In this document: positions 188 through 36,206 of the stretch, one piece after another
How the letters are laid out: every line of letters begins with the position of its first letter
How positions within the stretch are numbered: position 1 is the stretch's first letter
Sequence record: OQ718158.1
From: Escherichia phage vB_Ec-M-J
Direction: 5' to 3' (one strand)
DNA length: 64,000 nucleotides
Made by a program: the position numbers and the translations under genes
Notes under the pieces: model-generated
Database searches by the model: none
The model's input: only the letters and a program-made list of their open reading frames with translations
What the model was told of the DNA's origin: nothing

Positions 188-571
188 ATGATAAACGATG
201 TAATGCTTTATGTATTAATTACTCCGATTCTTATTAACTCAGTAATAACTATTTCAATGGCATTATTTGGTATAGTAGCAATTGTTTATGCGGTTAGTAC
301 TGGAAAGTATACTTTAATTAGTAAGGTTGATTCATGGTTCGCATCTGATAGTGTACCATATTCAGCTAGTATGATTACGATTGGTATTCTAATCGTTGCA
401 TTTACACTGCACTGTATTGGTTTTATTAATACAAGTATTTTTTCAGTTTTTATTGGTCTATCATTATATCCATCACTTTGGTACTTGATTTATGTAATCG
501 ATGTTTGGTATAATAACTACAAGCAGTACAAAGTGAAGAAATCCATTTTATCCAAAGGAAACAAATCATGA
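188..571 (+). CDS. small hydrophobic membrane protein (hypothetical)
   Basis: 127-aa track ORF, several hydrophobic segments; stop overlaps next start (ATGA). Confidence 0.5.
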   Translation: MINDVMLYVLITPILINSVITISMALFGIVAIVYAVSTGKYTLISKVDSWFASDSVPYSASMITIGILIVAFTLHCIGFINTSIFSVFIGLSLYPSLWYLIYVIDVWYNNYKQYKVKKSILSKGNKS

Positions 572-918
572 AAGTAATTTTGTTTTTTGTTTGTATGATT
601 ATATGTGGTATGTCTTATGCAGAACCATTACCTGGACTAGTCTGTACTGAAGGTGATATTAAACACATTTACCAAGGTGATAGCGATGACCATACTATCG
701 TTTATATCGATGGTGAAGTGTATAATTTTGTTAAAGAACATACTGTAGGTGACATTAGTTTTACGCAGTACTCGAATGATACTGATCCCAATATGCTTGC
801 ATTTCTTCAAGTTGATGTATATGAAGAAAGTAATGGTGAACAGTATGTTAAACTTGTGATGATGCGTAAGGCAGCAAAACAGGCAACATTCGGTGGCTTG
901 TGTAAATATGAGGACTAA
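568..918 (+). CDS. secreted hypothetical protein with N-terminal signal peptide
   Basis: N-terminus MKVILFFVCMIICGMSYA is signal-peptide-like; RBS GGAAAC before ATG. Confidence 0.55.
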   Translation: MKVILFFVCMIICGMSYAEPLPGLVCTEGDIKHIYQGDSDDHTIVYIDGEVYNFVKEHTVGDISFTQYSNDTDPNMLAFLQVDVYEESNGEQYVKLVMMRKAAKQATFGGLCKYED

Positions 919-4199: not shown

Positions 4200-4270
4200 T
4201 TTGACTTTGGAACAACCATTTCATATGTGATATAATCTTAAGTGTCTGTTGAAATAAACAGCACATGAAG

Positions 4271-4278
4271 TATAAATA
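4271..4278 (+). promoter_or_regulatory. T4-type late promoter motif TATAAATA (tentative)
   Basis: exact TATAAATA about 35 nt upstream of 4311 start; 8-mer alone expected by chance in AT-rich DNA. Confidence 0.3.
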
Positions 4279-4310
4279 TTAAAGTAATTTATCTCTTTAA
4301 GGAGTATGAA

Positions 4311-4694
4311 ATGGTTGATAAATGGAATAAGAAAGATCCATCGCATGATGTGGATATTTCTGGAATTGATAATGCACATAAGCATAAGTATCTTGATTCA
4401 CTAGGTCTACTAAAGCCTGACCAAAGTCTTGCACATGATCGTCCTTCACGCGAAAAAGCTTTCAGTTTAGAATCACTAGGCCATGAATTGAATCGTGTAT
4501 TTGAAGATCATCCAATTTATGTACGTGATATCATTGAGAAACTTAAAGTGACTCCTAAAGAGCACTTCAAGGCAACAGTACACGCAGCATTCCGTGCACT
4601 ACATGAAGCACTAAAGAAAACTCATAACCTTCGTAAGATTCATGATGATATCGTGAACTCTATTGAAGGCGAAAAACATAAGTTTAAAAAATAA
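4311..4694 (+). CDS. hypothetical protein with Y(L/V)(D/N)SLGLL motif
   Basis: 127-aa ORF; AAGGAG RBS; TATAAATA late-type motif about 35 nt upstream; motif shared with 5542..7053. Confidence 0.6.
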   Translation: MVDKWNKKDPSHDVDISGIDNAHKHKYLDSLGLLKPDQSLAHDRPSREKAFSLESLGHELNRVFEDHPIYVRDIIEKLKVTPKEHFKATVHAAFRALHEALKKTHNLRKIHDDIVNSIEGEKHKFKK

Positions 4695-4698
4695 TTAA

Positions 4699-4734
4699 AA
4701 GGGGTTGACTTCAGTCAGCCCTTTGTCGTATAAT
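4699..4734 (+). terminator. fused terminator-promoter module
   Basis: GGGGTTGACTTCAGTCAGCCC hairpin then TATAAT. Confidence 0.55.
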
Positions 4735-4781
4735 ATTTTCATCAAGTGATACAAAATACAAACAACGTGAGGTATTAAATT

Positions 4782-4895
4782 ATGCAAGGTACTAAATTCA
4801 TCATCGCTGCCCTAATCGCTGCTGTTGTAGTGGGTACAGTATGTTATTCAATTGACACCTATATCAATACACCTAGTGTTGAACAAACCAAATAA
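4782..4895 (+). CDS. small hydrophobic peptide (37 aa, hypothetical)
   Basis: hand-found ORF below track threshold; GAGG RBS; single TM-like segment. Confidence 0.35.
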   Translation: MQGTKFIIAALIAAVVVGTVCYSIDTYINTPSVEQTK

Positions 4896-4903
4896 GGGAT
4901 ATC

Positions 4904-5167
4904 ATGGCTGAAACATTATCACTATATGCGTTAGTACTGTTATTTGTCGGATTTCTTCCCGCACTCATTACAGCCATTCGTGTTGTTAAACATGAAGCTG
5001 CATTGATTGTATGTAGTATTGGGTCGAACATTCTATTGTATTTCTTTTTGACAAACACTATTGTACTGTTCGCTTTCTTTATCATGATTCTGTGGGTACT
5101 TGTAATTCTCGGATTCTTCATTTGGTCATTGGTTGATCCTAAGAAAAAAACAGGAGAAGTGAAATGA
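4904..5167 (+). CDS. small membrane protein (hypothetical)
   Basis: 87-aa hydrophobic ORF; stop overlaps next start. Confidence 0.5.
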   Translation: MAETLSLYALVLLFVGFLPALITAIRVVKHEAALIVCSIGSNILLYFFLTNTIVLFAFFIMILWVLVILGFFIWSLVDPKKKTGEVK

Positions 5168-5460
5168 AATTAATTATTGTAATGATGATGTTTTTGGCTT
5201 TCCCAGTACTGGCTACTCCTAATCTGGACTGCACACTGTTGCGTTCAGATGGTGACACACTTGAAATCAACACATATGAACTCTTTGGTCCAAGTGTAGT
5301 GGAGAATGAAACCACCTACAATTTCAAAGCTATTGACTTTGAAGGTAATGTTCCAGTACTAACTACAATGACTATTGACAAAACTACTTTACTCGGACGA
5401 ATCACCACACAACGCGGAGAAAGTAAAACATTCACAGCGAAAGCTGACTGTAACTACTAA
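5164..5460 (+). CDS. secreted hypothetical protein (signal peptide)
   Basis: N-terminus MKLIIVMMMFLAFPVLA; GGAG RBS. Confidence 0.55.
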   Translation: MKLIIVMMMFLAFPVLATPNLDCTLLRSDGDTLEINTYELFGPSVVENETTYNFKAIDFEGNVPVLTTMTIDKTTLLGRITTQRGESKTFTAKADCNY

Positions 5461-5481
5461 TGGTATAGTACAGTGAAAATA

Positions 5482-5513
5482 GGGTTGACTTCGGTCAACC
5501 TTTTCTTTATACT
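5482..5513 (+). terminator. fused terminator-promoter module
   Basis: GGGTTGAC-TTCG-GTCAACC then T-run and TATACT. Confidence 0.6.
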
Positions 5514-5520
5514 ATAAATA
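5513..5520 (+). promoter_or_regulatory. T4-type late promoter motif TATAAATA (tentative)
   Basis: exact TATAAATA about 25 nt upstream of 5542 start. Confidence 0.3.
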
Positions 5521-5541
5521 TAGTCATAGAGAATAAACAAT

Positions 5542-7053
5542 ATGAAATCTATGGAGAGAAATCAAATGCCAGGTCAATTTACTGATAAAAATGGCGGGAA
5601 CATGGCAGGTCACTCTGATAAATGGAGTGAACGCAATCGTCGTCAAAATAGCTACCAAGCAGGACAGGGGTCACGTGGTTCACGTAATCAAGGGACAGGT
5701 TTAGCTGGTAAGGCAAACGCAGAAGCAGGTGAAGTTAAGAGTACTGAGAACATGACTGAGCTAGAAAAGCTACGTTATGTTAACTCATTAGGTCTTCTTA
5801 ACGCAACACAGAAACAACGCCTTGCTGATATGGAACGTGCTGAGAAAGAACAAGAAGTTCCTAAAGAAGAACCAAAACCAGAAGCTCCTAAAGCAGCTAA
5901 CCCTGTTAAAGAGTTATCTGATAACTTAGGTAAGATCTTTGCTAACAAACCACAGTTGATTCAGGGTATTGTCAAAGCACTACAGGCAGTTCCTAAAGAA
6001 GAACTCAAAGGTAAAGCACAAGCTGTACTTGATGCAATGAAAGGTAATAAGAGCACTGAACCTACTGAAGTATTCAGTACTATCATGCGTGCACTTGAAG
6101 GTACACACAAAGAAGATTCCAAAGAACCTGAACAGGGTGAAGCAAGTCTTGATGGTATTCTTAAAACTTTTGATAGTATTGGTAAAGCAGACCGTGCTAA
6201 TGCCCAGCAAGTCAAGAATGTACTGGCTAAACTTGAAAACCGTTTAGAAGGTAAAGATGATAAGGTTAAGCTCGTATCAGATGCAGTTAACAGTGCACTT
6301 AAATCTTATGTACAAGGTGAGAAAAGTCGCTTCGTAACAGCTATGGATGCTGCATTCAACACTATGAAAAAGTATGAAGCAGAACATGGTGAGAAAGTGA
6401 CACCTGATGGATATCTACTACGTAAAGATGAAGAAGGTGCAGTTGAACAGAAAGATGTTGAGCCTGAGCAAGAAGATCTACCTGATACCGTTGATATGGA
6501 TGGATACATTCATCGTCCTGAGATGGAAGAGTTTGGGTCAGATAAAGAAGGTTTTGAACATGCAATGGCAGTATATAAAGCATTAGTTAAAAATCCAGAT
6601 TATGCTAACCGTTTTGTTGACGAGTTTGATAGTGCATGGAATAACTACAAAGAGAAAGGTTATGATTTCCCTGCTGAAGCTGCATTCTTTGAACTTGGTA
6701 AACTATTAGCTAAACATGGAATTGACGTTGGTTCATCTGATTCCGAAGGTATGGAAGAAGAACATCTTGAAATGACTGATAAATCAATTCATGAACTTCA
6801 AAAGTTAATGATGTGGATATCCGAGATTGGTAAAAAAGCAGGTGCTGATAGTAAAAGTATCAACAAAAATATTAGTTGGATTAAAGATAATGTTGGTAAC
6901 AATGCTCGTAAACTTCAAAAGGCTTGGGCTGATTTAGTAAATGGTGCAGATGATGTTGACATTGAATCACCAGAAGCATATGAGTATGCACTAACTACAC
7001 TTGATAACTCATTCAAAGAGTACGACCGTGGTGTTGGAAAGGATAAAAAATAA
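5542..7053 (+). CDS. acidic K/E-rich 503-aa protein (hypothetical; candidate late/virion protein)
   Basis: longest plus-strand ORF in part 1; TATAAATA at 5513; shares SLGLL motif with 4311..4694. Confidence 0.7.
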   Translation: MKSMERNQMPGQFTDKNGGNMAGHSDKWSERNRRQNSYQAGQGSRGSRNQGTGLAGKANAEAGEVKSTENMTELEKLRYVNSLGLLNATQKQRLADMERAEKEQEVPKEEPKPEAPKAANPVKELSDNLGKIFANKPQLIQGIVKALQAVPKEELKGKAQAVLDAMKGNKSTEPTEVFSTIMRALEGTHKEDSKEPEQGEASLDGILKTFDSIGKADRANAQQVKNVLAKLENRLEGKDDKVKLVSDAVNSALKSYVQGEKSRFVTAMDAAFNTMKKYEAEHGEKVTPDGYLLRKDEEGAVEQKDVEPEQEDLPDTVDMDGYIHRPEMEEFGSDKEGFEHAMAVYKALVKNPDYANRFVDEFDSAWNNYKEKGYDFPAEAAFFELGKLLAKHGIDVGSSDSEGMEEEHLEMTDKSIHELQKLMMWISEIGKKAGADSKSINKNISWIKDNVGNNARKLQKAWADLVNGADDVDIESPEAYEYALTTLDNSFKEYDRGVGKDKK

Positions 7054-7062
7054 ACATTTAAA

Positions 7063-7100
7063 AGGTTGACTTCGGTCAACCTTTTTTTGTAAATATTGTA
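7063..7100 (+). terminator. terminator hairpin of module type
   Basis: AAAGGTTGAC-TTCG-GTCAACCTTTTTTT. Confidence 0.65.
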
Positions 7101-7124: not shown

Positions 7125-7376
7125 ATGTTTAAATATGTTTTATTTTCACTTGTATTGTTTACTGATATAGTTTATAGTACTGAATACCAGTGCTCCATTG
7201 CTAGACAGGAGTTTAGAAACGGTGAGTTCTATACCAAGTCTTACACTAGAGGATTGGTACATGACAATAATAAAACTATAGGGTTCAATGCATTTGATAA
7301 CAAAGATCGATATACGTCTGGAATACTATCTGAACGTAAGTCTGATATACTAGGTATCGAGCGTGAATTCCGGTGA
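7125..7376 (+). CDS. secreted hypothetical protein (signal peptide)
   Basis: N-terminus MFKYVLFSLVLFTDIVYS; GAGG RBS. Confidence 0.5.
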   Translation: MFKYVLFSLVLFTDIVYSTEYQCSIARQEFRNGEFYTKSYTRGLVHDNNKTIGFNAFDNKDRYTSGILSERKSDILGIEREFR

Positions 7377-7386
7377 CACGGTTGCA

Positions 7387-7737
7387 ATGTGTAATGATAT
7401 TGAGAGTACTAAGAAAGTATATACTAATGGTGAAAATACTTTTAGATTCCACAATCTTACTACTAATGAAAGTTTATACTTCTACAACTGTAAAGAGTTC
7501 ATTAAACCTGTGGATAACTCATGTGATATGCCGGAGCCAAAAGCTGCTGTATGTGAGGAACCACAATCCAAAGCTGACAAAGATTCAAAAGATAAGAAAG
7601 ACAAAGCTGACAAATCGGATAAAAAAGAAAACAAAAAGAAAGCTAAAGATGATAAAGATAAAAAGTCCCCTAAGCCAAATCCATTTGAAAAGCCAAAGAA
7701 TGAAAAGCCAAAACCAGACATGACATGTAAAATATAA
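7387..7737 (+). CDS. hypothetical protein with Lys/Asp-rich low-complexity tail
   Basis: track ORF 7363 (GTG) trimmed to first ATG; may be a frameshifted continuation of 7125..7376. Confidence 0.4.
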   Translation: MCNDIESTKKVYTNGENTFRFHNLTTNESLYFYNCKEFIKPVDNSCDMPEPKAAVCEEPQSKADKDSKDKKDKADKSDKKENKKKAKDDKDKKSPKPNPFEKPKNEKPKPDMTCKI

Positions 7738-7803: not shown

Positions 7804-8217
7804 ATGTTAAAAGTTATTTTCCGTTCTATCAGTTCATTACTTCTTATGATTAGTTCAGTTTGTTATGCAAATGAAGTATCTGATTTATTTGAGAAGAATT
7901 ACCCAACTGCACAAGAGATGGGTGTTTTAAAATGCAAGCTAACTTCGTACAACATCATCGGCAGTAAACTTGTACTAGAACATGAACGTAGTACACCAAT
8001 CCCTCTAGTAGAAGAAGGTAGTACCTTTAGCTTCAAGTACGGGGTGAACGTAACATCTGGTGTAATGAACAATGTTGATGCAGAGACTGGTTCAACATGG
8101 AGTACTAGCGGTAAAGATGTGTTTCATCGTATGCGTGAAAATGGTAAACTGAAGTACGTATATGAAAGTTCATTCATGAAACGTGTATTCATTATAAAAA
8201 ATTGTGTACCAGCATAA
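7804..8217 (+). CDS. secreted hypothetical protein (signal peptide)
   Basis: N-terminus with hydrophobic core before CYA; GGAGG RBS. Confidence 0.55.
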   Translation: MLKVIFRSISSLLLMISSVCYANEVSDLFEKNYPTAQEMGVLKCKLTSYNIIGSKLVLEHERSTPIPLVEEGSTFSFKYGVNVTSGVMNNVDAETGSTWSTSGKDVFHRMRENGKLKYVYESSFMKRVFIIKNCVPA

Positions 8218-8513: not shown

Positions 8514-8852
8514 ATGGAACAACATTTTGAATTAATTAATAAGGTATCATTTTATGTAGTATCATTAATTTGGGTGTATTACATGTTTTGTTACATTATT
8601 GCATTCTTCCGATACACGACCTTGTATCAACGCATATACTACGATGCACCCATTTCATTTATGATGTTCTGTGCATGTACGTGGGGGATAATTGAAGCAC
8701 TGGTATGTGGATATAGTACTGACGAATTAAATCTCGTATCGGGGTTGACATTACTAACAATTGCCATTATGATAGCTACTGTTCCGATATTTTTGCTCTT
8801 TAAACTGCTTCATCGTATCGATGAGTGGCGTAATAAAATCCCTGAAAAGTAA
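8514..8852 (+). CDS. small multi-pass membrane protein, family A paralog 1
   Basis: about 112 aa, hydrophobic, C-terminal basic tail ending KIPEK; tandem with two paralogs. Confidence 0.6.
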   Translation: MEQHFELINKVSFYVVSLIWVYYMFCYIIAFFRYTTLYQRIYYDAPISFMMFCACTWGIIEALVCGYSTDELNLVSGLTLLTIAIMIATVPIFLLFKLLHRIDEWRNKIPEK

Positions 8853-8861
8853 GGATTGATA

Positions 8862-9203
8862 ATGATTTTTTACACTAATGCGTTTGCTTATGCCGTTGCA
8901 TCAATCTACATTGTGTACTTCTTATTTGGTGGAGTACTGTACTTCTTTAAGTACAAAACATTGTTTAACCGAATGTATCCAAATCACCCAATTGTAGTAG
9001 TACTTTTGATGATTTCTGTTGCTCACATCATTGTAGAAACAATAATGGGTATCAGTGCAGTACATTACAGTCTAGGTACTATTGTGATTATTACTATGAT
9101 CATCGCATACATTTTAGTAATGGGTTCTGGTTTATTTGGGAATGTAGCAATGAAATTGTATAATCGAATTAAAACCTTACGTGATAATCTACCGGAGCGT
9201 TGA
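8862..9203 (+). CDS. small multi-pass membrane protein, family A paralog 2
   Basis: track ORF (TTG) trimmed to ATG; tail ends NLPER. Confidence 0.6.
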   Translation: MIFYTNAFAYAVASIYIVYFLFGGVLYFFKYKTLFNRMYPNHPIVVVLLMISVAHIIVETIMGISAVHYSLGTIVIITMIIAYILVMGSGLFGNVAMKLYNRIKTLRDNLPER

Positions 9204-9204
9204 G

Positions 9205-9549
9205 ATGTATAATTTAAATTTAATCTCATATATCATAACAACACTGTTTACTTTCTATACCTTTGTCGGTATACTCCTACTGTACTTTAAATTTTATAAA
9301 CTCTTTGACCGTTTATATCCATCATTGGAACATGAATTCTTATTGGTGATGTACATCTGTTTAACGTGTATGTCTACATTTTTCACTGTATTTGATGGTA
9401 TCATCGGTATTAAAGCTGAAGATCCAAATGGCAGTACACTTGTTGCCTTTATCCTGGTAGGATTCTTCGGTACTTATATCACTTTCATTTCAACATGGTC
9501 TGTGGTTGATTATCTCATTAGATTACGAGATAAAATGCCAAATCGATAG
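9205..9549 (+). CDS. small multi-pass membrane protein, family A paralog 3
   Basis: track ORF (GTG) trimmed to ATG right after upstream stop; tail ends KMPNR. Confidence 0.6.
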   Translation: MYNLNLISYIITTLFTFYTFVGILLLYFKFYKLFDRLYPSLEHEFLLVMYICLTCMSTFFTVFDGIIGIKAEDPNGSTLVAFILVGFFGTYITFISTWSVVDYLIRLRDKMPNR

Positions 9550-18632: not shown

Positions 18633-19757
18633 TTAATTATCTAAGCCACCAATTACACTGAACTGTGTGGTAACGTCTGAACTATTATCTATGTAAGTTC
18701 TTCGACCAACATAATATAGTTGTCCTTTTGCTTGAATAAAAGTTACGGTCCCTGTATTGAATGTTATAATATCATTGTATGTAATGTCAGGTGGTAGTGC
18801 TGCTGATAATGCAGTAACAGCACTTAATGCAGCACTAGCACTACCATTTATACCAGCAGCAATACTACCAGTACCATAGAACTTATTATCTTTACCAATG
18901 AATACGTTGGCTGATGCTTGTGTAGCTGATGTTATTGCCTTACCAATTTGGAATGCGGTTCCTATGGTGTATGGTGTGCTCCTGGCTGCGTCTATGCTTT
19001 GTGTATATCCATCCCCTAGCTGACCATTAACTTTGTCACCACATGAGTATAGAGTACCATTGAGGCTGTATATGATCCCACGGTTAGAGAAGCTAACAGC
19101 TTCTGCATTAGTCCATACTGGTGCGGTGTATGAGTTTACACGACTAGCGGTAGTTCCTAGACCTAGTATACCATATGTGTTATCACCACATCCAAACCAT
19201 TGTCCAGAACTGTTTTGATAGAACACTGAACGTTCTGTTGATTCCATGCGTACAGCATCCACAGCACCACTTTTAACGAACGAAGTGGATGAGGATGTAG
19301 TACCAGTACCCAATGCACCATAAGTGTTTGTACCAATCGCATAGATTGATCCTAGTGGTGTCATAACACGTATGCAGTTATATCCCAATTGAACTTTACA
19401 TTCAAATAGGTTGTCCCATATTTCAGGAACAGCAGAAAATAAATTTGTAATTTCGAACCATGATGTTGTCGAACCAGTTAATCCTATACTGCTTTTGTTT
19501 CCTAAAATGAAAACAGTTTTGTCCTTCTTAATTATCCATGATGATAGAAAGCCTATCTCACAGCTATGAACATTTGATTCGATTTGGGTAATATAATACT
19601 TAACGGTGTTATCACCCATAAATGCCGCAGCACCAGATGCAAAAAGGTTTCCAGTTTGTTTATTTAAAATGTAGTTATTGTTTCCATATACACTAACATC
19701 ATAAGAACTTTCTTGTTTTTCGTTCCCATAATCAAATAACAATACGAAAGGTAACAT
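18633..19757 (-). CDS. beta-propeller protein, RCC1-like repeats, divergent leader MLPFVLLFDYGN
   Basis: 374 aa; G/S/T/N-rich; motifs YGALGTG, YGILGLG, NGQLGDG. Confidence 0.75.
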   Translation of the reverse strand: MLPFVLLFDYGNEKQESSYDVSVYGNNNYILNKQTGNLFASGAAAFMGDNTVKYYITQIESNVHSCEIGFLSSWIIKKDKTVFILGNKSSIGLTGSTTSWFEITNLFSAVPEIWDNLFECKVQLGYNCIRVMTPLGSIYAIGTNTYGALGTGTTSSSTSFVKSGAVDAVRMESTERSVFYQNSSGQWFGCGDNTYGILGLGTTASRVNSYTAPVWTNAEAVSFSNRGIIYSLNGTLYSCGDKVNGQLGDGYTQSIDAARSTPYTIGTAFQIGKAITSATQASANVFIGKDNKFYGTGSIAAGINGSASAALSAVTALSAALPPDITYNDIITFNTGTVTFIQAKGQLYYVGRRTYIDNSSDVTTQFSVIGGLDN

Positions 19758-19834
19758 GATAAAATCTCCTTGTGTTATACTTTATTTAATCATTTTATAA
19801 TGTACAATTTTACAGCGATTTAATTGAGGTACTC

Positions 19835-20485
19835 ATGAATAAAAGAAGTAAGTTCTATCAAGAATATTTCACTAAACAGAAACGATTCACAAAAAAATAC
19901 TTTACATCATCCCACCGACCAGTTGCAAGTTACAAACGTCCTAATACTAACTATCTTACTGGTGGCAAGTTTAGTGCAAAGTTCGAATTACTTATGCGTG
20001 AAAAGAATATCAAGATGCATTACGCAGAGACAAGAAAAAACTCATCAATTATTTGTTCTGATTTTCTTGAGTACGGTTGCTTAACTTATAAATTCAATGA
20101 TGTATATTTGTATATTGATGTTGATTGTAACAGTACTCGTATGTTTGAGATTTCAATTCACCCAAATCACAACCGTTATATAAACATTAACTTGGTTGAT
20201 AAAGTACTGATTGGTATATCTAGTACTGATGGTGGTGGATTTGAATTTATTGCTTCAAAATATGATGAAGATTTCGTACTTTACCCAGTACTTGATGATG
20301 TGAAAGATATTCTCAATTCATTAAAAGGAAGTCAATACAAATTATCTGAAGAACAGCTATTTCAGTACTCACTTATTCATGATGATATCGAGATATACTT
20401 AGAGTGTGCGAGAATCTTGGAGTATCTTTATAATGAACTAACAACAACTGGTAAAGTGACAGCATTCACATTATATAATATGTAA
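19835..20485 (+). CDS. hypothetical protein (plus-strand gene embedded in propeller array)
   Basis: 216-aa ORF flanked by AGTACT hairpins on both sides. Confidence 0.55.
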   Translation: MNKRSKFYQEYFTKQKRFTKKYFTSSHRPVASYKRPNTNYLTGGKFSAKFELLMREKNIKMHYAETRKNSSIICSDFLEYGCLTYKFNDVYLYIDVDCNSTRMFEISIHPNHNRYININLVDKVLIGISSTDGGGFEFIASKYDEDFVLYPVLDDVKDILNSLKGSQYKLSEEQLFQYSLIHDDIEIYLECARILEYLYNELTTTGKVTAFTLYNM

Positions 20486-20493
20486 AAGAAAAA

Positions 20494-20512
20494 GCCAGTA
20501 CATAGTACTGGC
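20494..20512. terminator. bidirectional hairpin between convergent genes
   Basis: GCCAGTACATAGTACTGGC flanked by A and T runs. Confidence 0.55.
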
Positions 20513-20518
20513 TTTATA

Positions 20519-21652
20519 TTAAACTGGTGGAGAATTATATGGCTCAAATTTATAAGTTGTCGTAGCAGTACCAGCAATGGCGTTGTTAGCTAGTATGTAC
20601 ATAGTCCTATAGTCGATTACTACCACAGTAATACTACCACCAAAAGCATAGTCTGTTATGTTATTAGTGTTGAATGGTAAATTAGATGAACTGGTCCATG
20701 TATTAGCTGTTGTGCTATTTGTACCATTGGAATAGCCGACACTAGATGCACCAGTTGTCCATAAGTTTCCATCATTGAACAACGATACATGGTTAGCTGT
20801 ATATGATTTATTAGGTATAGAACTATCAATTGGCGTATTCCAAACTTTAGTAACCCATGTTGTGACGGCTGTATTATTAGTAACACCATTACCTAACGAA
20901 CCATTTATTGGTATACCTCTTATATAAGAAGTGTTAGTACTAGGGTCAACATATCCAAATGTATATGTATCAAATGCAAATTGAAAACAATCAGAACTCG
21001 GTAATGTGTACAGTAATGTATATGAAGACGTGATTATTGATGAATTTGTACCGTTCACGCCTTGGTATAAAATACCACTACCCAATATTTGATTATTATT
21101 TTTTGTTATAGCAGTCATAGATGGATATGTTTTTACTTCACGCACATCATTAGTTACATATGTTTGTGTTGATAATGCAACATTACTACCATTACCAATA
21201 ACACCTGTATTTGCACCGCTTCCATAAAGTGAACCATCATTCAAAAGTACCATTGTGGCATTACTATTTCCAGTAATTGTTTTAATATTACTAACATCCA
21301 CCGCAGCAAATACAGTTGATGTTAAATCAGTGAAACGTGTATAATGTGATGTTGTGCCATTGATTGGTGTCGCAAAACCAGAATACAAAATTCTATTTTC
21401 TTTGGTAATAAGGAATGTTCCAGTAACACCGTTTGAATGGATATCAATAATATTATCGCCCATTAATACCCAATCACTTACGAATGTTGTACCAGCACCC
21501 AACCCATATGTCGTATTGTATCCACGTCCATACACTCTACCATCACTGAGTAATGTTACCACACATTGACCACCACCACCAAGGATAACTTTTTGGATAG
21601 TACTCTTTACTTTTATATTCCCGTACTTAACCATTCTTGCAAAAGGTAACAT
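20519..21652 (-). CDS. beta-propeller protein, RCC1-like, leader MLPFARMVKYGN
   Basis: 377 aa; conserved leader and upstream cassette with AAGGAGG RBS. Confidence 0.8.
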   Translation of the reverse strand: MLPFARMVKYGNIKVKSTIQKVILGGGGQCVVTLLSDGRVYGRGYNTTYGLGAGTTFVSDWVLMGDNIIDIHSNGVTGTFLITKENRILYSGFATPINGTTSHYTRFTDLTSTVFAAVDVSNIKTITGNSNATMVLLNDGSLYGSGANTGVIGNGSNVALSTQTYVTNDVREVKTYPSMTAITKNNNQILGSGILYQGVNGTNSSIITSSYTLLYTLPSSDCFQFAFDTYTFGYVDPSTNTSYIRGIPINGSLGNGVTNNTAVTTWVTKVWNTPIDSSIPNKSYTANHVSLFNDGNLWTTGASSVGYSNGTNSTTANTWTSSSNLPFNTNNITDYAFGGSITVVVIDYRTMYILANNAIAGTATTTYKFEPYNSPPV

Positions 21653-21696
21653 AATTCCCTCCTTTATTCTTTATACTATATTTAATCAAAAAGAAA

Positions 21697-21715
21697 AGCC
21701 AGTACTCTGTACTGG
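21697..21715 (-). terminator. inter-cassette terminator hairpin of propeller array (representative)
   Basis: GCCAGTACAGAGTACTGGC followed by TTTTCTTTTT on minus strand; same design between most paralogs. Confidence 0.6.
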
Positions 21716-21722
21716 CATTATT

Positions 21723-22883
21723 TTAAATTGGTGAATCTTCAACAAATATAGTACTAGCAGTACCACCAGATACTAGGTTAGTACCACTTGAATATATTTT
21801 GTTTCCATCTGTCATATATGTTTTACCATAGCAACTTTGGATTTTAACATCTTTGAAATTCAAATCAGGAGTAATAGATTTAGTGTAAGTTAATACGTTA
21901 GTAGTTGAACCTGTACTTAATTGTCCATAGTATGAAGTCGCTGAGTTATTACCAGCAACGTATACACCTGTGTCAGTAATAACAAAGTTAGAGTAATATC
22001 CGTACCCATATCCTATATCTAATATATTTCCTTGTGGTTGATTTGCCACAACAGTTGTCAATATGTTGGTTGATGCTGCTGTATTAGTAGCAGCCTGTCC
22101 ATATGATTGGTCACCACCAGTATACACAGTAACAACAGACGTACTATTGTTTCTAGCAATACCTTGAACCATACCATTAACAGTACTTATAAATGCTATA
22201 GTACTAACAGTTGCTGGTAATCTATCTGATAATGCGAATACATTATAAAAACTCACGGTTGAAGTACTGTTAGTATCACCCTTAACTTCACCTGTGTAAT
22301 ATAGTCTACCACTTTCGGCAATAAACGAACACATGTTTATACCTGCAATAATCCTTTTCGGAACCGCACCACTTGGTATAATTGATTGTACTAAAGTAGA
22401 GAAACTGTTAGAATAAGAAGCATTCCCAAGCTGCCCTCCTGTGTTATAACCACCACTCCAAATTGTCCCATTACTCATAAGTATTGAAATGAAGTTATTC
22501 CCTAGTGATATTTCTGAAATTGTTCCTTGGGAATTAACTTGATTAATAACAGTTTGCATAGAAGTCCATGCATTAACAGATGATGTACCCATACACACAT
22601 TGTATTGTCGCCCTGTGTATTGATATGTACCATCTGATTTGTGAATCATTGTAGCATACTGACCACACCATACATCAATGACATCCGATGCAGTTACTGT
22701 CCATGATGTTCTGGTTGTATTGTCTCCTAAACCCAACTGACCACTTGAATTGGAACCACGGGTATATAATTTACCATTACTACCCAATACCATAACCCAG
22801 TTATACCCTGCAACTAATTTTTTAATGGCAGCAGGGGATGGTGCAATGTTCCCGTAATCAAACAATCTTACAAAAGGTAACAT
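21723..22883 (-). CDS. beta-propeller protein, RCC1-like, leader MLPFVRLFDYGN
   Basis: track ORF trimmed to MLPF start (AAGGAG RBS); motifs SGQLGLGDN, GGQLGN. Confidence 0.8.
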   Translation of the reverse strand: MLPFVRLFDYGNIAPSPAAIKKLVAGYNWVMVLGSNGKLYTRGSNSSGQLGLGDNTTRTSWTVTASDVIDVWCGQYATMIHKSDGTYQYTGRQYNVCMGTSSVNAWTSMQTVINQVNSQGTISEISLGNNFISILMSNGTIWSGGYNTGGQLGNASYSNSFSTLVQSIIPSGAVPKRIIAGINMCSFIAESGRLYYTGEVKGDTNSTSTVSFYNVFALSDRLPATVSTIAFISTVNGMVQGIARNNSTSVVTVYTGGDQSYGQAATNTAASTNILTTVVANQPQGNILDIGYGYGYYSNFVITDTGVYVAGNNSATSYYGQLSTGSTTNVLTYTKSITPDLNFKDVKIQSCYGKTYMTDGNKIYSSGTNLVSGGTASTIFVEDSPI

Positions 22884-22896
22884 TTTTTTCTCCTTA

Positions 22897-24045
22897 TTAT
22901 ATTGATGGCATATCCAACACATATGAGTTGCTAGTAATTGATGAATATGTAGAATTTAAACCTGTACTATAAACATAATCACCTGCCCATAAGAATGTTC
23001 TATCCAATGTTGTATGTATTTCAATATCATCATATGATGATAATGATATTTGTGCTAGTGTATATGTAGTAGCATCAATGTTTGAACCAATACCCAAAGT
23101 ACCATTGTATTGTGATTGGGAGTTTTGACCAGTTGCATATATACCAGATTTGGTTATTAAATGCTGATTGTACATTGACGTACCTTTAAACAATTTAATT
23201 AAATTAGAGTTAGGTGTAGTTATTGGTGCAGGAGCAAGTATTGTTGTTGTAGTGCCACCATCACCTAATTGTCCATATCGTTGGTAACCACCAGCGTATA
23301 CCTGTTTAACTCCAGCCGTAGTTTCAATAATAAAGAATGAACCATAGCCAGTAGTATTAAAGTCTATAATTTTATTTGTACTCAAACCAACATTATATCT
23401 AGTAAATGTTGTTGCATTTGCTGAACCACCAGCATTCCCACCTACCATTTGCCCACTATAATAAAATGCTCCAGTACTGTCAGTATAAGCCATACAGTTC
23501 TCACTACCATAGATTTTTACTGGTGTACTGGGGAAACTAGAGGTTATATTCACACATGTATTATATTTTGCAGTAGTTCCAGTAATTTCACCATTGTTGT
23601 TTTGCCCAATTACCCAAACTGTGTCATCCGAACGTATAGCCATTGAGCTATAAAACGAGGATACAAATTGTTTAATAAAGGAACCAGGGAGAGAAGTAAG
23701 CATACTATTGATTTGTGCACTCACATTGGTCCATGTATTCACAACTGAATTGACACCTGCGGCTGCACCTGAACCAGAACTCCACCATGATTCATCATTC
23801 TTTTTAATCAATGTACCATTAGCAGAGCAATAAACATCAGCAACTGAACTATTAACTAATATCCATGCCCTCGCTGCTGTTGTATTACCAGTACCTAGCT
23901 GTCCTGCTGCATTACTACCCTTAGCATATAAATCTCCATTCTGCGTTAAAAGCATAGCATGTTGGTATCCAGTTGACAATTTCTTTATTTTTGGTAATGC
24001 TGGTGCTTCATTTCCATAATCAAACATTCTAACAAAAGGTAACAT
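22897..24045 (-). CDS. beta-propeller protein, RCC1-like, leader MLPFVRMFDYGN
   Basis: 382 aa; motifs AGQLGTGN, YGQLGDGG. Confidence 0.8.
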   Translation of the reverse strand: MLPFVRMFDYGNEAPALPKIKKLSTGYQHAMLLTQNGDLYAKGSNAAGQLGTGNTTAARAWILVNSSVADVYCSANGTLIKKNDESWWSSGSGAAAGVNSVVNTWTNVSAQINSMLTSLPGSFIKQFVSSFYSSMAIRSDDTVWVIGQNNNGEITGTTAKYNTCVNITSSFPSTPVKIYGSENCMAYTDSTGAFYYSGQMVGGNAGGSANATTFTRYNVGLSTNKIIDFNTTGYGSFFIIETTAGVKQVYAGGYQRYGQLGDGGTTTTILAPAPITTPNSNLIKLFKGTSMYNQHLITKSGIYATGQNSQSQYNGTLGIGSNIDATTYTLAQISLSSYDDIEIHTTLDRTFLWAGDYVYSTGLNSTYSSITSNSYVLDMPSI

Positions 24046-24116
24046 AATTCCCTCCTTTATTCATTATACTATATTTAATCAAAAAGAAAAGCCAGTACTC
24101 AAGTACTGGCATTATC

Positions 24117-25295
24117 TTAAAATTGTGGTAGTTGGTATTCAGTTAATGTCCATGTACCTGTAACTGTTCCATTCGGGGACATCCCTGTGTAGTATAATTT
24201 GCCACCAGCGTATACAAATAATGCATTGTCATTAGCAGCAACCATCGAAGTTTCTGGATCAAATACTACAGAAATTGGTAATTGTGATTGAACAAATACT
24301 GACGCATTGGTAGTTGAATTGTTACCAAGTTGTCCATAGTTGTTATACCCAGTACTGAAAATACGGCTACCATTTCTATATAATATACCCCTAGTACTTT
24401 GTGAATGTAGATCTATAAATTCAAAATCGGAAACATTAGTTAATTGCAAATAAGTACTTTGTGGAGTTAGTGCTGTCTTATTCGTATTGGTTGTAACTCC
24501 ATTACCTAATTGACCGTAAAATTGTGATCCTAAACCATATAGCGGATAAGTACCATCTGAATAAAGAACTATACCCAACATCTTATTATGTGAAAGAATA
24601 TCTATTGGATATTTCCCTGTACCAAAGTCGTATCTAGTCCAAGACGTTAATGTAGCCGACGCTGCCCCAGTTAACAAAGTACCAGTGGTAGTTGTGCCAC
24701 ATCGCCACGCTGAATTATCATTCTTAATTATCCAAGTTGGACTATTAAAAAATGAACTAACCTTTTTAACATTAATATTGACCTGGGTTAATTCTGTAAG
24801 CATTGATGAACTTGAACCCAACTCATATGTGGAGTTATTACCTATTGCATAAAGAACCCCACTATTTGTTAGTACAAACAAATTACGAACATTAGGATAT
24901 ATCTCTTTAATATCATCAATATTAATACCCGAAAAATAAGAAGTACATTCCACAAAGGTAGTACTTTGTACTTCACTCGATGCACCTGTCCAGGTGTTCC
25001 ATCCTGCATAATAAAATTTATTATCATTAGTCTGTACTAAGCTATATGAAGAGTTCCTAGTGCACCAGAAATTTTTCACATTTTGCATTAATCGAACCCA
25101 TGATGTCTGTGTTGTAGTATTACCCAGTCCGAAAATACCAGCATTGTTTCCACCGATACCCCACAAATCACCGTTACTATACTGTAGCATCAATGTATTG
25201 TTGGTGAACGCTGATGGTGCTTGCATTTTAATTACATTAGCTGATGGTGCAGGTTTAATATTCCCGTACTTAACCATTCTTGCAAAAGGTAACAT
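24117..25295 (-). CDS. beta-propeller protein, RCC1-like, leader MLPFARMVKYGN
   Basis: 392 aa; motifs YGQLGNGV, YGQLGNNS. Confidence 0.8.
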   Translation of the reverse strand: MLPFARMVKYGNIKPAPSANVIKMQAPSAFTNNTLMLQYSNGDLWGIGGNNAGIFGLGNTTTQTSWVRLMQNVKNFWCTRNSSYSLVQTNDNKFYYAGWNTWTGASSEVQSTTFVECTSYFSGINIDDIKEIYPNVRNLFVLTNSGVLYAIGNNSTYELGSSSSMLTELTQVNINVKKVSSFFNSPTWIIKNDNSAWRCGTTTTGTLLTGAASATLTSWTRYDFGTGKYPIDILSHNKMLGIVLYSDGTYPLYGLGSQFYGQLGNGVTTNTNKTALTPQSTYLQLTNVSDFEFIDLHSQSTRGILYRNGSRIFSTGYNNYGQLGNNSTTNASVFVQSQLPISVVFDPETSMVAANDNALFVYAGGKLYYTGMSPNGTVTGTWTLTEYQLPQF

Positions 25296-25370
25296 ATATT
25301 TTTCCTCCTTTATTCATTATACTATATTTAATCAAAACGAAATGCCAGCACTCAAGTACTGGCATTATTG

Positions 25371-26561
25371 TTATAGTTGTCTTGGAGTATCAAGTACATA
25401 TCTATTTGTACTAGGACCACCATCATCATAAGTTCCGGTTGAATATATATTTTTCATATCAGCAGTTAGGAAAGTACGTAACGACCCTCGATATATTTTT
25501 ATTTTATCATACATAGAATATGTTATTTCTGACGGCAATGGACATGCAGTAAATTTACCAATGGTAACATTAGAACCAACACCCAATGAACCAGCATAAC
25601 TACTCGCATTTAAACCTGTTGCATATACACCAGAACTCGTAACTAGTATACTAGATTGTGCTGGGTATCCAGTATGAATTGAATACAAAGTACCGGGTGG
25701 TAAGGTTGTACTATTATTTCCTAATACTGCTCGTGCTGTACTAGACGTAGTGTTATTACCCCATGCCCCATTATTGGCGTTCCCACCCACTAGGAACTGA
25801 CGTGCTCCTGTACTTGGATTCTCCACTAAAGCACTGACTGCACCAATTGTACATACAACATATTGTAATGTTTTTGTATATGTTGTACTTGGCTGATATA
25901 AAGTATATTGATTGTATGGAGTCCATGTATCAGTAGTACTTATACCTGATGTACTACCACCAATATATAAATTATTTTGTGTATCATAAAACATTACACA
26001 GCTATTTGTTGACTGTATTCGTGCAATATCAACATTAGGCGTGACAGCTTTTACAAATGATCCATCTGTTATTTGCTGAGTACTACCAGTACCATCAGCG
26101 AATTGTCTAGCCCCACTCCAACCAGTACTCCATATTGTATTATTATCCATTAAGAAAGTAAACCAAGTAGTACCTGCATACATCTGTTTAATTGAAGTAC
26201 CTGAACTTTGTGTGTACAAATTTTCAATATATTGGTTATAACTTAAAAATGATGTAGTACTAGTTTCTAAACCAATATGACTACCATATCCACAATAAAA
26301 ATAATTTAAGTCCTTATCTTGAACTAACAAAGTTCCTTGTGTCATCCAGCAATCTTTGACATTTTCTCTAATTAATGTCCACGACCTTACTGCATTATTA
26401 TTTCCGCGACCGAACTTCCCATAACTATTATTTCCTCGTGCGTATAGTTGACCGTCAGTATAAAGTACAACCACATCAGTATCAGTTGGTATTATTTTCT
26501 TAATTAGAAGAGGTTCAGGTGTGATATTCCCATAATCAAACAATCTAACAAAAGGTAACAT
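25371..26561 (-). CDS. beta-propeller protein, RCC1-like, leader MLPFVRLFDYGN
   Basis: 396 aa; conserved leader and cassette. Confidence 0.8.
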   Translation of the reverse strand: MLPFVRLFDYGNITPEPLLIKKIIPTDTDVVVLYTDGQLYARGNNSYGKFGRGNNNAVRSWTLIRENVKDCWMTQGTLLVQDKDLNYFYCGYGSHIGLETSTTSFLSYNQYIENLYTQSSGTSIKQMYAGTTWFTFLMDNNTIWSTGWSGARQFADGTGSTQQITDGSFVKAVTPNVDIARIQSTNSCVMFYDTQNNLYIGGSTSGISTTDTWTPYNQYTLYQPSTTYTKTLQYVVCTIGAVSALVENPSTGARQFLVGGNANNGAWGNNTTSSTARAVLGNNSTTLPPGTLYSIHTGYPAQSSILVTSSGVYATGLNASSYAGSLGVGSNVTIGKFTACPLPSEITYSMYDKIKIYRGSLRTFLTADMKNIYSTGTYDDGGPSTNRYVLDTPRQL

Positions 26562-26631
26562 ATTTTCCTCCTTTATTCATAATACTATATTTAACCAAAA
26601 AGAAAAGCCAGTACTTGATACTGGCGTAATG

Positions 26632-27774
26632 TCAATAAGCTTCCCACGGTAAGGGTGTCTTCCTAAATCCATACCTGGTTGTGGTCGCACCATCACCAGC
26701 AATGTATCGACCGATACCACATTGGTATAACTCTGTACTACTACATATAGCACCACCAATAGTACCACTACTCCACAGAATTATATTAGAATATGTTATT
26801 GGTAAATCACTACATTTAGTATATACACCAACGGTAGCAGTCCCACTAATACCACCAAACATACTTCGGTTAGCACCAGTATAATATATACCATCTGGAC
26901 TCATAAATGCAGAGGTGTAAGTTGTACTACAATCCACTGGACTTCTTATAGTATTAAGATCGCCTGGGTATGTCCTGACACCAAAGGTGTATACATTACC
27001 ATCAGTTGTAATACCATTACCTAACTGCCCACTGTTTTGTCCACCACATGTAAGCAACAATGCAGAACCAGAAACAATTGCAGTAGCATTATACGAAGTA
27101 CCCATCGCAATAGAAGCACCAGACAATAGTTTTGGAGTAACAATAGCTGTTGTATTACCCTGGCCTAATTCACCATTGATATTTCGTCCCCATGCGTATA
27201 TAGAAGTTGTATCCAATCGACATAGTACTGAACCATAACTAAACGTATATCGCATGTCAATTACCGCATTAGGCAAATTAACCTTAGTTGCAACACTAAT
27301 AACACCACCAGTAACACCACTGTTTGCGTTCATGTTACGACCATATGCATATAAAGAACCATCTGAAGTTTTAATATGCATCATACCATCTGTACAATAC
27401 AATGCATCTATACTATCCACTGCAACCGGACCCATACTGGTAGTTATATCGGTCCACCCAAGCGTGGTAGTACTGGAAATTAAGTTATTTCCGGCGTATA
27501 GTATTCTATTATTATTAGTAACTACAACTGTATATCTGGCAGTAACACCAATTAATCGAACATCAGTATATATCTTAGACCACGCACCTAATGAATTGGT
27601 GTTTGCATCCAAAAAGCCCAACTGCCCATCTGTATTGTATCCAATACCCCATACATCACCTGCACTGTCCAATAACACTTCATGTGAAAATCCAATCTTA
27701 AAATCTTTTATTGTAGGAACTACCGGAACTGGTGCAATATTCCCGTACTTAACCATTCTAGCAAAAGGTAACAT
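26632..27774 (-). CDS. beta-propeller protein, RCC1-like, leader MLPFARMVKYGN
   Basis: 380 aa; motifs DGQLGF, SGQLGNG, NGELGQGN. Confidence 0.8.
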   Translation of the reverse strand: MLPFARMVKYGNIAPVPVVPTIKDFKIGFSHEVLLDSAGDVWGIGYNTDGQLGFLDANTNSLGAWSKIYTDVRLIGVTARYTVVVTNNNRILYAGNNLISSTTTLGWTDITTSMGPVAVDSIDALYCTDGMMHIKTSDGSLYAYGRNMNANSGVTGGVISVATKVNLPNAVIDMRYTFSYGSVLCRLDTTSIYAWGRNINGELGQGNTTAIVTPKLLSGASIAMGTSYNATAIVSGSALLLTCGGQNSGQLGNGITTDGNVYTFGVRTYPGDLNTIRSPVDCSTTYTSAFMSPDGIYYTGANRSMFGGISGTATVGVYTKCSDLPITYSNIILWSSGTIGGAICSSTELYQCGIGRYIAGDGATTTRYGFRKTPLPWEAY

Positions 27775-27850
27775 AATTCCCTCCTTTATTCATTATACTA
27801 TATTTAATACAAAAAAGAAAAGCCAGCACTCAAGTACTGGCATTTTAATT

Positions 27851-28999: not shown

Positions 29000-29070
29000 A
29001 TTTCCCTCCTTTATTCATTATACTATATTTAATTCAAAAAGAAAAGCCAGTATCAAGTACTGGCATTATG

Positions 29071-30180: not shown

Positions 30181-30190
30181 ATTTCTCTCC

Positions 30191-31321: not shown

Positions 31322-31398
31322 AACTAATTCTCCAAATTCAAATAATTATAATGTATTTACAAAAAAAATACCAGCACATATTTCAGTACTGGTATCAT

Positions 31399-36194: not shown

Positions 36195-36206
36195 ATTTCC
36201 TCCAAA

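What the first reader, a model, noticed from the sequence alone, without database searches (positions are those of the whole stretch)
4271..7053. Two late-motif genes sharing a Y(L/V)(D/N)SLGLL motif, one a 503-aa acidic protein
4311..4694 and 5542..7053 each have an exact TATAAATA about 25-35 nt upstream, unlike the sigma70-type neighbours. They share the short motif KYLDSLGLLK and RYVNSLGLLN near the N-terminus. The 503-aa protein is strongly acidic and K/E-rich. They may be virion or injected proteins. The 8-mer alone is not statistically significant in AT-rich DNA.
Basis: inference. Interest (0 to 1): 0.4.

Follow-up and report, generated by a model that had tools for sequence, protein, structure and literature searches.

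The report
Paralogous late-expressed virion proteins, jumbo coliphage

Summary
The window comes from an Asteriusvirus, a 121Q/PBECO4/phAPEC6-like jumbo coliphage. Exact TATAAATA occurs only twice in 64 kb (13.4 expected), both times just upstream of the two genes. The looser [AC]TAAATA occurs 3 times against 64.6 expected. In 300 kb of the relative phAPEC6 there are only 15 TATAAATA. Twelve lie upstream of a same-strand gene, 11 of them within 24-64 nt. These genes include the major capsid protein, the scaffold and the orthologues of both genes here. That phage also encodes a gp55-like late sigma factor.

Published virion mass spectrometry detected both orthologues in phAPEC6 (gp037c, gp035c) and a family member in phage CBB (CBB_38).

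The two proteins are true paralogues (BLASTP E=1e-8 over about 115 aa), not just motif-sharers. The long one starts at 5566 (495 aa), not 5542. They belong to a small family restricted to Rak2-like jumbo phages. It has a basic disordered N-part, the hallmark EKLKYFNSLGLL peptide, a four-helix domain and a fast-evolving acidic tail. No known fold or domain matches.

Each gene also has a sigma70-like promoter. My inference is that they are head-internal, DNA-associated or ejected proteins; this is untested. The virion and late-promoter facts are largely known already, so interest is modest.

The parts
4207..4236 (+). sigma70-like promoter upstream of P1 (TTGGAA-18-TATAAT, with TG before the -10)
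   Evidence: 10 of 12 consensus positions. A consensus match only; function is not shown.
4271..4278 (+). T4-type late promoter motif TATAAATA, 32 nt before the P1 ATG
   Evidence: one of only two copies in 64 kb. The motif is conserved in 121Q and phAPEC6 although the flanking sequence differs.
4311..4694 (+). P1: a 127-aa basic virion protein (phrog_16530). It is the short form of the family: a DKW remnant, the KYLDSLGLL motif (nt 4386-4415) and the helical domain.
   Evidence: Its orthologue phAPEC6 gp037c was detected in virions.
4698..4734 (+). PeSL-type cassette: a terminator stem-loop that contains TTGACT, followed 18 nt later by TATAAT
5481..5513 (+). PeSL-type cassette upstream of P2: stem-loop 5481-5502 containing the -35 TTGACT, with the -10 TATACT at 5508-5513
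5513..5520 (+). T4-type late promoter motif TATAAATA. It overlaps the sigma70-like -10 by one base (5513) and lies 45 nt before ATG 5566.
5566..7053 (+). P2: a 495-aa virion protein (phrog_20398, with an N-terminal phrog_16530-like module). Residues 1-180 form the conserved module, which includes RYVNSLGLL (nt 5773-5802). Residues 181-495 form a variable acidic helical region. The ORF extends upstream to ATG 5542, but that start is unlikely.
   Evidence: Its orthologue phAPEC6 gp035c was detected in virions.
7060..7085 (+). Terminator stem-loop / PeSL stem that closes the P2 transcription unit

Best explanation
P1 (4311-4694) and P2 (5566-7053) are paralogous virion proteins of an Asteriusvirus jumbo coliphage. 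Each is a single-gene unit bounded by stem-loop terminators in the early-gene region, and each has two stacked promoters. The first is a sigma70-type promoter, read by unmodified host RNA polymerase early in infection. The second is an exact T4-type TATAAATA, read late by polymerase carrying the phage's gp55-like sigma factor. The same perfect motif precedes the capsid and scaffold genes, so late expression is probably strong.

Both proteins belong to a family confined to Rak2-like jumbo phages. The family is built from four parts:
- a basic, disordered region rich in G, S, N, Q and R (HSDKW...GQGSRGSRNQGTG);
- the hallmark amphipathic peptide DTSKMxPEEKLKYFNSLGLL;
- a four-helix domain (NPVKELSD...EVFSTIMxAIEG);
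- in the long forms, a fast-evolving acidic helical region.

Shown: the sequence facts, the paralogy, the promoter statistics, and virion association of the orthologues.

Inferred: the conserved N-terminal module docks the protein inside the assembling head. The basic tail lies against packaged DNA, so the proteins would contribute to the inner body seen in 121Q and phAPEC6 and/or leave with the DNA at infection. The variable acidic part would be a payload or spacer.
For: Source phage: the window is 99.6% identical to phage Turkey3 and 93% to 121Q.

Motif rarity: 2 TATAAATA against 13.4 expected, and 3 [AC]TAAATA against 64.6 expected, in the window.

Motif distribution in phAPEC6 (bases 1-300000): only 15 TATAAATA against about 50 expected from Markov models. 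Twelve lie upstream of a same-strand gene, 11 at 24-64 nt and one at 195 nt. Seven lie 42-55 nt before proteins detected in virions by mass spectrometry: capsid gp225c, scaffold gp226c, gp158c, gp238, gp323c, gp035c and gp037c (gene tables). My own estimate of the chance expectation for those seven target windows is about 0.06 sites.

Late sigma factor: phAPEC6 gp237c matches phrog_234 'late sigma transcription factor' at 8e-18. The CBB paper predicted an ATAAATA late motif and a gp55-like factor for this phage group.

Conservation of a late-type motif before family members: TATAAATA in 121Q, phAPEC6, KP13-7 and Munch_040; ATAAATA in RaK2; CTAAATA in GAP32, CBB, BF and Munch_498.

Virion mass spectrometry: and probably the 17.0-kDa row (matched by mass).

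Paralogy and module structure.

Family restriction: 46 cluster representatives among 1.84 billion proteins, about 30 of them genuine.

Support for an internal location:
- An inner body is seen by bubblegram in 121Q and phAPEC6, and its components are unidentified.
- The predicted structure is all-alpha 'beads on a string' with a disordered basic N-terminus.
- Some family members are just 82-127-aa basic disordered peptides that end in the motif.
- The genes sit among early genes, away from the structural cluster.
Against: No transcript mapping exists for any Asteriusvirus, so late and early promoter use is inferred from sequence alone.

Nothing places the proteins inside the head rather than on the capsid surface or tail.

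There is no T4-like capsid-targeting sequence and no conserved [LI]xE protease site near the N-terminus, although the capsid protein's LTE43 fits a T4-like protease specificity.

The Erwinia phage proteomes were made from ghost particles. If the 17-kDa row is the family member, it stayed with DNA-free particles, which argues mildly against a freely ejected protein.

The phAPEC6 virion list also contains evident passengers (SSB, RecA-like protein, thymidylate synthase).

Other virion proteins encoded in the window (the RCC1-like array) lack [AC]TAAATA, so the motif is not universal for virion genes.
Confidence: 0.6

Rival explanations
1. They are external accessory proteins: capsid decoration or cement proteins, or anchors for the hair-like fibres. 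They would be made late and added to the outside of the particle, as T4 Soc is. T4 soc is likewise encoded away from the structural cluster and has a late promoter.
For: phAPEC6 cryo-EM shows an unassigned decoration protein and a fibre-anchoring protein on the capsid (figure legends). In GAP32, CBB and BF, the family member has its ribosome-binding site inside a hairpin, with the promoter elements in the loop; from my own knowledge this resembles the T4 soc/e arrangement. The protein probably persists in ghost preparations.
Against: The predicted structure is all-alpha, with long disordered basic and acidic segments and no fixed domain arrangement (pTM 0.26). This is unlike the beta-rich decoration proteins I know of. 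Foldseek found no capsid or tail accessory fold. The C-terminal two thirds vary greatly between close relatives, which fits poorly with a lattice-bound cement protein.
Confidence: 0.2
2. They are scaffold-like assembly factors of the prohead core. They would be needed during head assembly and would mostly be removed, with the mass-spectrometry signal reflecting leftovers.
For: The composition is helical, acidic and coiled-coil-like; P2's orthologue was auto-annotated as SMC-like. The perfect late motif is shared with the scaffold gene gp226c.
Against: The bona fide scaffold gp226c has 25 [LIV]xE sites in 371 aa. P2 has 4 in 495 aa and P1 has 3, so they are not built for T4-type degradation. 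Peptide coverage of 29-57% in purified virions is high for a leftover; the scaffold itself gave 4.9%.
Confidence: 0.1
3. They are early host-takeover proteins that merely co-purify with virions, and the TATAAATA copies are incidental.
For: Both genes sit in the early region and have sigma70-like promoters. Virion proteomes of these phages list obvious non-structural passengers.
Against: The motif is strongly avoided elsewhere in the window, yet a late-type motif is kept before family members in five genera while the flanking sequence diverges. Family members were detected in independent virion preparations of phages from different genera.
Confidence: 0.07

Closest known systems
phAPEC6 gp037c/gp035c, 121Q gp199/gp201, CBB_38, GAP32_032 and RaK2 ORF275 (PHROG 16530 / 20398 'virion structural protein')
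   Same: These are direct orthologues or family members. P1 matches phrog_16530 at 7.7e-55 and P2 matches phrog_20398 at 7.3e-245. Family members were detected in virions by mass spectrometry.
   Different: Nothing essential differs. The published records give no function, do not note that the short and long proteins are paralogues, and do not describe the module structure or the KYFNSLGLL hallmark.
T4 late promoters (TATAAATA read by gp55, with gp33 and the gp45 clamp)
   Same: The octamer is identical and sits 24-64 nt before start codons of capsid, scaffold and other virion genes. The phage group encodes a gp55-like sigma factor. The motif is counter-selected elsewhere in the genome.
   Different: The CBB paper found no gp33 or gp45 homologue in that relative. 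Variants such as CTAAATA appear to be used. No transcription start sites have been mapped.
T4 internal head proteins IPI-III and Alt
   Same: From my own knowledge of T4, these are virion proteins encoded outside the structural gene clusters, among early genes; they have late promoters and vary between relatives. P1 and P2 share that layout.
   Different: There is no sequence or fold similarity. There is no short N-terminal targeting sequence followed by an L/I-x-E cleavage site. Head-internal location and ejection are not shown here.
phiKZ-type inner-body proteins
   Same: 121Q and phAPEC6 show a phiKZ-like inner body by bubblegram. phiKZ inner-body proteins form paralogous families, as P1 and P2 do.
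   Different: The phAPEC6 authors found no similarity between phiKZ inner-body proteins and any phAPEC6 protein, and my fold searches found none either. Membership of the inner body is only my inference.
PeSL promoter-terminator cassettes of T4-like phages (PMC2839356, PMC4122927)
   Same: The stem-loops GGTTGACTTCGGTCARCC carry a -35 hexamer in the stem and a -10 hexamer 17-18 nt downstream. They bound P1 and P2 and recur 9 times in the window.
   Different: Here one cassette (5481-5520) has a late TATAAATA fused onto its -10 hexamer.

Membership tests
PHROG 16530 / 20398 (Rak2-like phage 'virion structural protein') | Significant match to the family profile HMM | tested here: met
   P1 matches phrog_16530 at 7.7e-55. 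P2 matches phrog_20398 at 7.3e-245, and its N-terminal 180 aa match phrog_16530 at 1.8e-40.
PHROG 16530 / 20398 (Rak2-like phage 'virion structural protein') | Physical presence in purified virions | not testable with these tools
   Known only from published mass spectrometry on orthologues: phAPEC6 gp035c and gp037c and CBB_38.
T4-type late promoter | TATAAATA octamer in an intergenic position a few tens of nt upstream of the start codon | tested here: met
   exact octamers at 4271-4278 and 5513-5520, lying 32 and 45 nt before the ATGs.
T4-type late promoter | The phage encodes a gp55-type late sigma factor | tested here: met
   phAPEC6 gp237c is annotated as a late sigma factor and matches phrog_12791 at 3e-154 and phrog_234 at 8e-18. 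This was shown in the close relative; the gene lies outside this window.
T4-type late promoter | The motif is associated with late or virion genes and is rare elsewhere | tested here: met
   12 of 15 genomic copies precede a same-strand gene, and 7 precede virion proteins confirmed by mass spectrometry, including capsid and scaffold; strong depletion in the window.
T4-type late promoter | Transcripts start 6-8 nt downstream of the motif, late in infection, and depend on gp55 | not testable with these tools
   No transcriptome of an Asteriusvirus was found.
T4 internal proteins (IPI-III, Alt) | An N-terminal capsid-targeting sequence of about 10-20 aa ending in an L/I-x-E protease site | tested here: not met
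   P2 has no [LIV]xE before residue 114 and P1 has none before residue 63. Short family members have no conserved site.
T4 internal proteins (IPI-III, Alt) | Sequence or fold homology | tested here: not met
   Pfam, NCBIfam, PDB sequence and Foldseek searches found nothing beyond the family itself.
phiKZ-type inner-body proteins | Homology to phiKZ inner-body proteins | tested here: not met
   The Foldseek search of viral structures returned only family members. The phAPEC6 authors likewise report no similarity.
phiKZ-type inner-body proteins | Location in the DNA-embedded inner body | not testable with these tools
   An inner body exists in 121Q and phAPEC6, but its composition is unknown.
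PeSL cassette | A GC-rich stem-loop terminator containing a -35 hexamer, with a -10 hexamer 16-18 nt downstream, repeated between genes | tested here: met
   9 sites against 0.35 expected. TTGACT-18-TATAAT at 4705-4734 and TTGACT-17-TATACT at 5485-5513.

The most novel reading that the evidence does not exclude
The KYFNSLGLL-module family is the missing protein component of the inner body of Rak2-like jumbo phages. The conserved N-terminal module (basic disordered tail, amphipathic peptide and four-helix domain) would act as a new kind of packaging and anchoring signal, unrelated to the T4 capsid-targeting sequence or to phiKZ propeptides. It would load fast-evolving acidic payloads into the head for delivery into the host with the DNA. 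The stacked early and late promoters would supply the same proteins both from the incoming particle and from early transcription.
Probability: 0.25. Interest if true: 0.6.

Novelty: new member of a known kind. Interest (0 to 1): 0.33.

Why it matters
This is a clean computational case that T4-type late promoters operate in Asteriusvirus jumbo phages. The motif is so strongly avoided elsewhere that a single exact copy is informative. This gives a simple way to flag late or virion genes hidden among the hundreds of unannotated genes in these 350-kb genomes.

The analysis also defines a jumbo-phage-specific protein family with a conserved N-terminal module and a hypervariable remainder. That family is a concrete candidate for the still-unidentified inner-body or ejected proteins of 121Q-like phages.

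The basic facts (virion protein, ATAAATA-type late motif) are already in the literature for relatives, so the gain is incremental unless the internal or ejected role is demonstrated.

Tried and rejected
Function by homology. Nothing turned up outside the family:
- Pfam on P1, P2 and ten variant homologues
- NCBIfam
- PDB sequence profiles of the full-length protein and of the N-module
- AlphaFold model followed by Foldseek against PDB and BFVD

The 'chromosome segregation/SMC' label on phAPEC6 gp035c is a composition artefact.

T4-style capsid-targeting sequence and protease site. The capsid protein's LTE43 fits the published 42.2 to 37 kDa processing, so the protease is probably T4-like. However, the family has no conserved [LI]xE near its N-terminus. 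Only the long forms have NPVKE116, and the short forms lack it. I rejected this as a defining feature.

Translational control by a hairpin that hides the ribosome-binding site in read-through transcripts. This is present in the GAP32, CBB and BF loci but not in this window, where only weak local stems form (-4 to -5 kcal/mol).

Transcriptome evidence. The PA5oct paper has no late-promoter motif information, and no Asteriusvirus transcriptome was found.

Peptide-level mass spectrometry to map processed N-termini. No supplement is held for the phAPEC6 paper. The RaK2 paper's main text does not mention ORF275.

Solved structure of a Rak2-like capsid, to place the proteins. None exists in the PDB; only T4-type gp23 structures match the capsid protein.

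The last 52.6 kb of phAPEC6 were not fetched, so the genome-wide counts cover bases 1-300000 only.
Full report
**Source of the window.** Bases 4200-7100 match jumbo coliphages of the genus Asteriusvirus. Identity is 99.6% to phage Turkey3, 99.3% to fEgEco12, 93% to 121Q and PBECO4, and about 85% to phAPEC6. In 121Q, fEgEco12 and other records the two genes are annotated 'virion structural protein'.

**Checking the observation.** Both ORFs exist. TATAAATA lies at 4271-4278 and 5513-5520 on the + strand.
- These are the only two copies on either strand of the 64-kb window, against 13.4 +/- 3.9 expected from dinucleotide-preserving shuffles.
- The 7-mer [AC]TAAATA occurs 3 times against 64.6 +/- 7.9 expected. 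The third copy is inside an ORF.
- The motif is therefore strongly avoided in this region, and its only intergenic copies precede the two genes.

Three corrections apply.
- The long gene most likely starts at ATG 5566 (MPGQF..., 495 aa). It has a GGAGAG Shine-Dalgarno sequence, it is annotated this way in relatives, and all distant homologues begin with MP.
- Both genes also have a sigma70-like promoter, at 4207-4236 and 5485-5513. The second sits in a stem-loop cassette, and its -10 hexamer (TATACT) overlaps the late octamer.
- The two proteins share about 115 alignable residues (BLASTP E=1e-8), not just a 9-residue motif. Both hit phrog_16530.

**Is TATAAATA a working late promoter in this phage group?** I fetched bases 1-300000 of phAPEC6 with its annotation and compared the motif with the 60 mass-spectrometry-detected virion proteins encoded in that stretch (62 in all).
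- There are only 15 TATAAATA on both strands, against about 50 expected from Markov models.
- Twelve lie upstream of a same-strand gene: 11 at 24-64 nt and one at 195 nt.
- Seven lie 42-55 nt before detected virion proteins: capsid gp225c, scaffold gp226c, gp158c, gp238, gp323c, and the orthologues of P2 (gp035c) and P1 (gp037c). By my own estimate, about 0.06 sites would fall in those windows by chance.
- Other copies precede the packaging endonuclease VII gene, a baseplate-region gene and the GroES operon.
- Many other virion genes have ATAAATA or CTAAATA at -36 to -65.
- phAPEC6 gp237c is a gp55-like late sigma factor (phrog_234 at 8e-18).
- The CBB paper had already predicted an ATAAATA late motif before structural genes, and a gp55-like factor, in Rak2-like phages.

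A late-type motif is kept before family members in five genera although the flanking sequence has diverged: TATAAATA in 121Q, phAPEC6, Klebsiella KP13-7 and Salmonella Munch_040; ATAAATA in RaK2; CTAAATA in GAP32, CBB, Serratia BF and Munch_498. No transcript mapping exists for these phages, so timing remains inferred.

**Virion association.** This rests on published proteomics of relatives.
- phAPEC6 gp037c (95% identical to P1): 5 unique peptides, 48% coverage. gp035c: 8 peptides, 28.8%.
- CBB_38: 9 peptides, 56.6% coverage.
- The 17.0-kDa 'putative structural protein' row in the Erwinia Eneladusvirus ghost proteomes probably corresponds to pEa_SNUABM_12_00027, whose computed mass is 17.0 kDa. 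That table gives no gene identifiers, so the match is not certain.

**The protein family.** Homologues of P2 keep residues 1-180 at 58-79% identity, while residues 181-495 fall to 1-38%. Residues 300-400 are present in only a few homologues. A profile of the N-terminal module, searched against 1.84 billion representative proteins, found only 46 hits. About 30 are genuine and all look like Rak2-like phage proteins; the remainder match only the low-complexity linker (tblastn).

The module has four parts:
- a basic, predicted-disordered region rich in G, S, N, Q and R (HSDKW..NRR..AGQGSRGSRNQGTG);
- the peptide DTSKMxPEEKLKYFNSLGLL;
- a linker rich in P, A, K and E;
- a four-helix domain (NPVKELSD...EVFSTIMxAIEG).

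Some family members have only the basic part plus the peptide (82-127 aa). Others, including P1, have only the peptide plus the helical domain.

AlphaFold predicts P2 as all-alpha domains joined by disordered linkers (mean pLDDT 69.5, pTM 0.26). Foldseek against PDB and viral models, Pfam, NCBIfam and PDB sequence searches return nothing informative.

**Mechanism.**
Shown or well supported:
- two single-gene units bounded by stem-loop terminators;
- each unit has a sigma70-like promoter and an exact late motif of the kind that precedes capsid and scaffold genes;
- the products are found in virions of relatives.

Inferred: the proteins are head-internal. The arguments for this are:
- 121Q and phAPEC6 have a phiKZ-like inner body whose proteins are unidentified;
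- the family's basic disordered tail and the mini-members that are little more than that tail would suit contact with DNA;
- the helical, flexible, fast-evolving acidic remainder does not resemble decoration or tail proteins;
- the genes lie among early genes, as (from my own knowledge) the T4 internal-protein and alt genes do.

The arguments against are:
- there is no T4-type targeting sequence or conserved protease site, although the capsid protein's LTE43 fits the published 42.2 to 37 kDa processing;
- the protein possibly persists in ghost particles;
- the published virion lists contain known passenger proteins.

I put about 0.9 on 'late-transcribed virion proteins' and about 0.4 on 'head-internal or ejected'.

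**Comparison with known systems, and verdict.** The genes are members of PHROGs 16530 and 20398 and orthologues of proteins already detected in virions. The promoter is of the T4 gp55 type. The flanking stem-loops are PeSL-type cassettes. Membership of the T4 internal-protein or phiKZ inner-body families fails the sequence tests, so any resemblance is only in how they might work.

What this analysis adds:
- the strength of the promoter statistics;
- the corrected start codon;
- the dual promoters;
- the paralogy between P1 and P2;
- the modular definition of the family.

Interest is modest unless the inner-body or ejection role is demonstrated.

Noticed in passing
window, both strands (whole 64 kb): The late-promoter core [AC]TAAATA is extremely depleted on both strands: 3 copies against 64.6 +/- 7.9 expected. 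TATAAATA shows 2 against 13.4. phAPEC6 shows the same avoidance genome-wide (15 TATAAATA in 300 kb against about 50 expected).
   Followed up: yes
window 1110, 4704, 5484, 7065, 7747, 12370, 13848, 15260, 52834 (+ strand): Nine copies of a stem-loop GTTGACTTCGGTCARC (0.35 expected). The stem carries a TTGAC -35 hexamer, and at least two copies have a -10 hexamer 17-18 nt downstream. These are PeSL-type terminator-promoter cassettes, as described for T4-like phages. The same element occurs in Klebsiella, Serratia and Salmonella relatives.
   Followed up: partly
window 4904-5460 (+): Two small genes lie between P1 and P2: an 87-aa protein that looks membrane-embedded and a 98-aa protein that appears to have a signal peptide. 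Both are absent from 121Q and phAPEC6 but present in fEgEco12. The indel sits next to the stem-loop cassette at 5484, which fits cassette-mediated gene shuffling.
   Followed up: partly
window 18633-37202 (- strand): A tandem array of about 15 paralogous genes of 370-400 aa encodes RCC1-repeat proteins (Pfam RCC1 / RCC1-like). Their phAPEC6 counterparts are virion proteins detected by mass spectrometry and labelled 'DNA condensation protein'. Nine of the genes are preceded by a conserved TTAAATATAGTATAAT instead of [AC]TAAATA, which suggests a different or variant promoter class for these virion genes.
   Followed up: partly
L016 about 1431-1500 (CBB_38), L014 (GAP32_032), L004 (Serratia BF gp027): In these genera, the family member's Shine-Dalgarno sequence (AGGGGA) is the 3' arm of a hairpin of -21 to -22 kcal/mol. 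The loop of the hairpin holds CTAAATA and a TATAAT -10 hexamer, and a U-run follows the stem. Read-through transcripts would hide the ribosome-binding site, whereas transcripts started inside the hairpin would expose it. From my own knowledge, this resembles the T4 e/soc arrangement. It is not present in this window.
   Followed up: partly
window 8514-9549 (+): Three adjacent ORFs of 112-122 aa look like paralogous small proteins with several hydrophobic segments and similar C-terminal ends (...NKIPEK, ...DNLPER, ...DKMPNR). They appear to be a local tandem triplication. This is from reading the translations only.
   Followed up: no
window 568-918, 2584-2808, 5164-5460, 7125-7376, 7804-8217 (+): Several small ORFs start with what look like signal peptides and contain cysteines. 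The one at 7125-7376 is annotated 'lytic conversion lipoprotein' in fEgEco12. This suggests a set of secreted or lipoprotein-like early proteins.
   Followed up: no
window 7363-7737 (+): A 124-aa ORF has a long low-complexity tract rich in K, D, S and P (KADKDSKDKKDKADKSDKKENKKKAKDDKDKK...).
   Followed up: no
L012 about 10495 (phAPEC6 record 260495, + strand): An exact TATAAATA lies 195 nt upstream of gp347, a virion protein with 75% mass-spectrometry coverage. This implies either a long leader or an unannotated small ORF between them.
   Followed up: no
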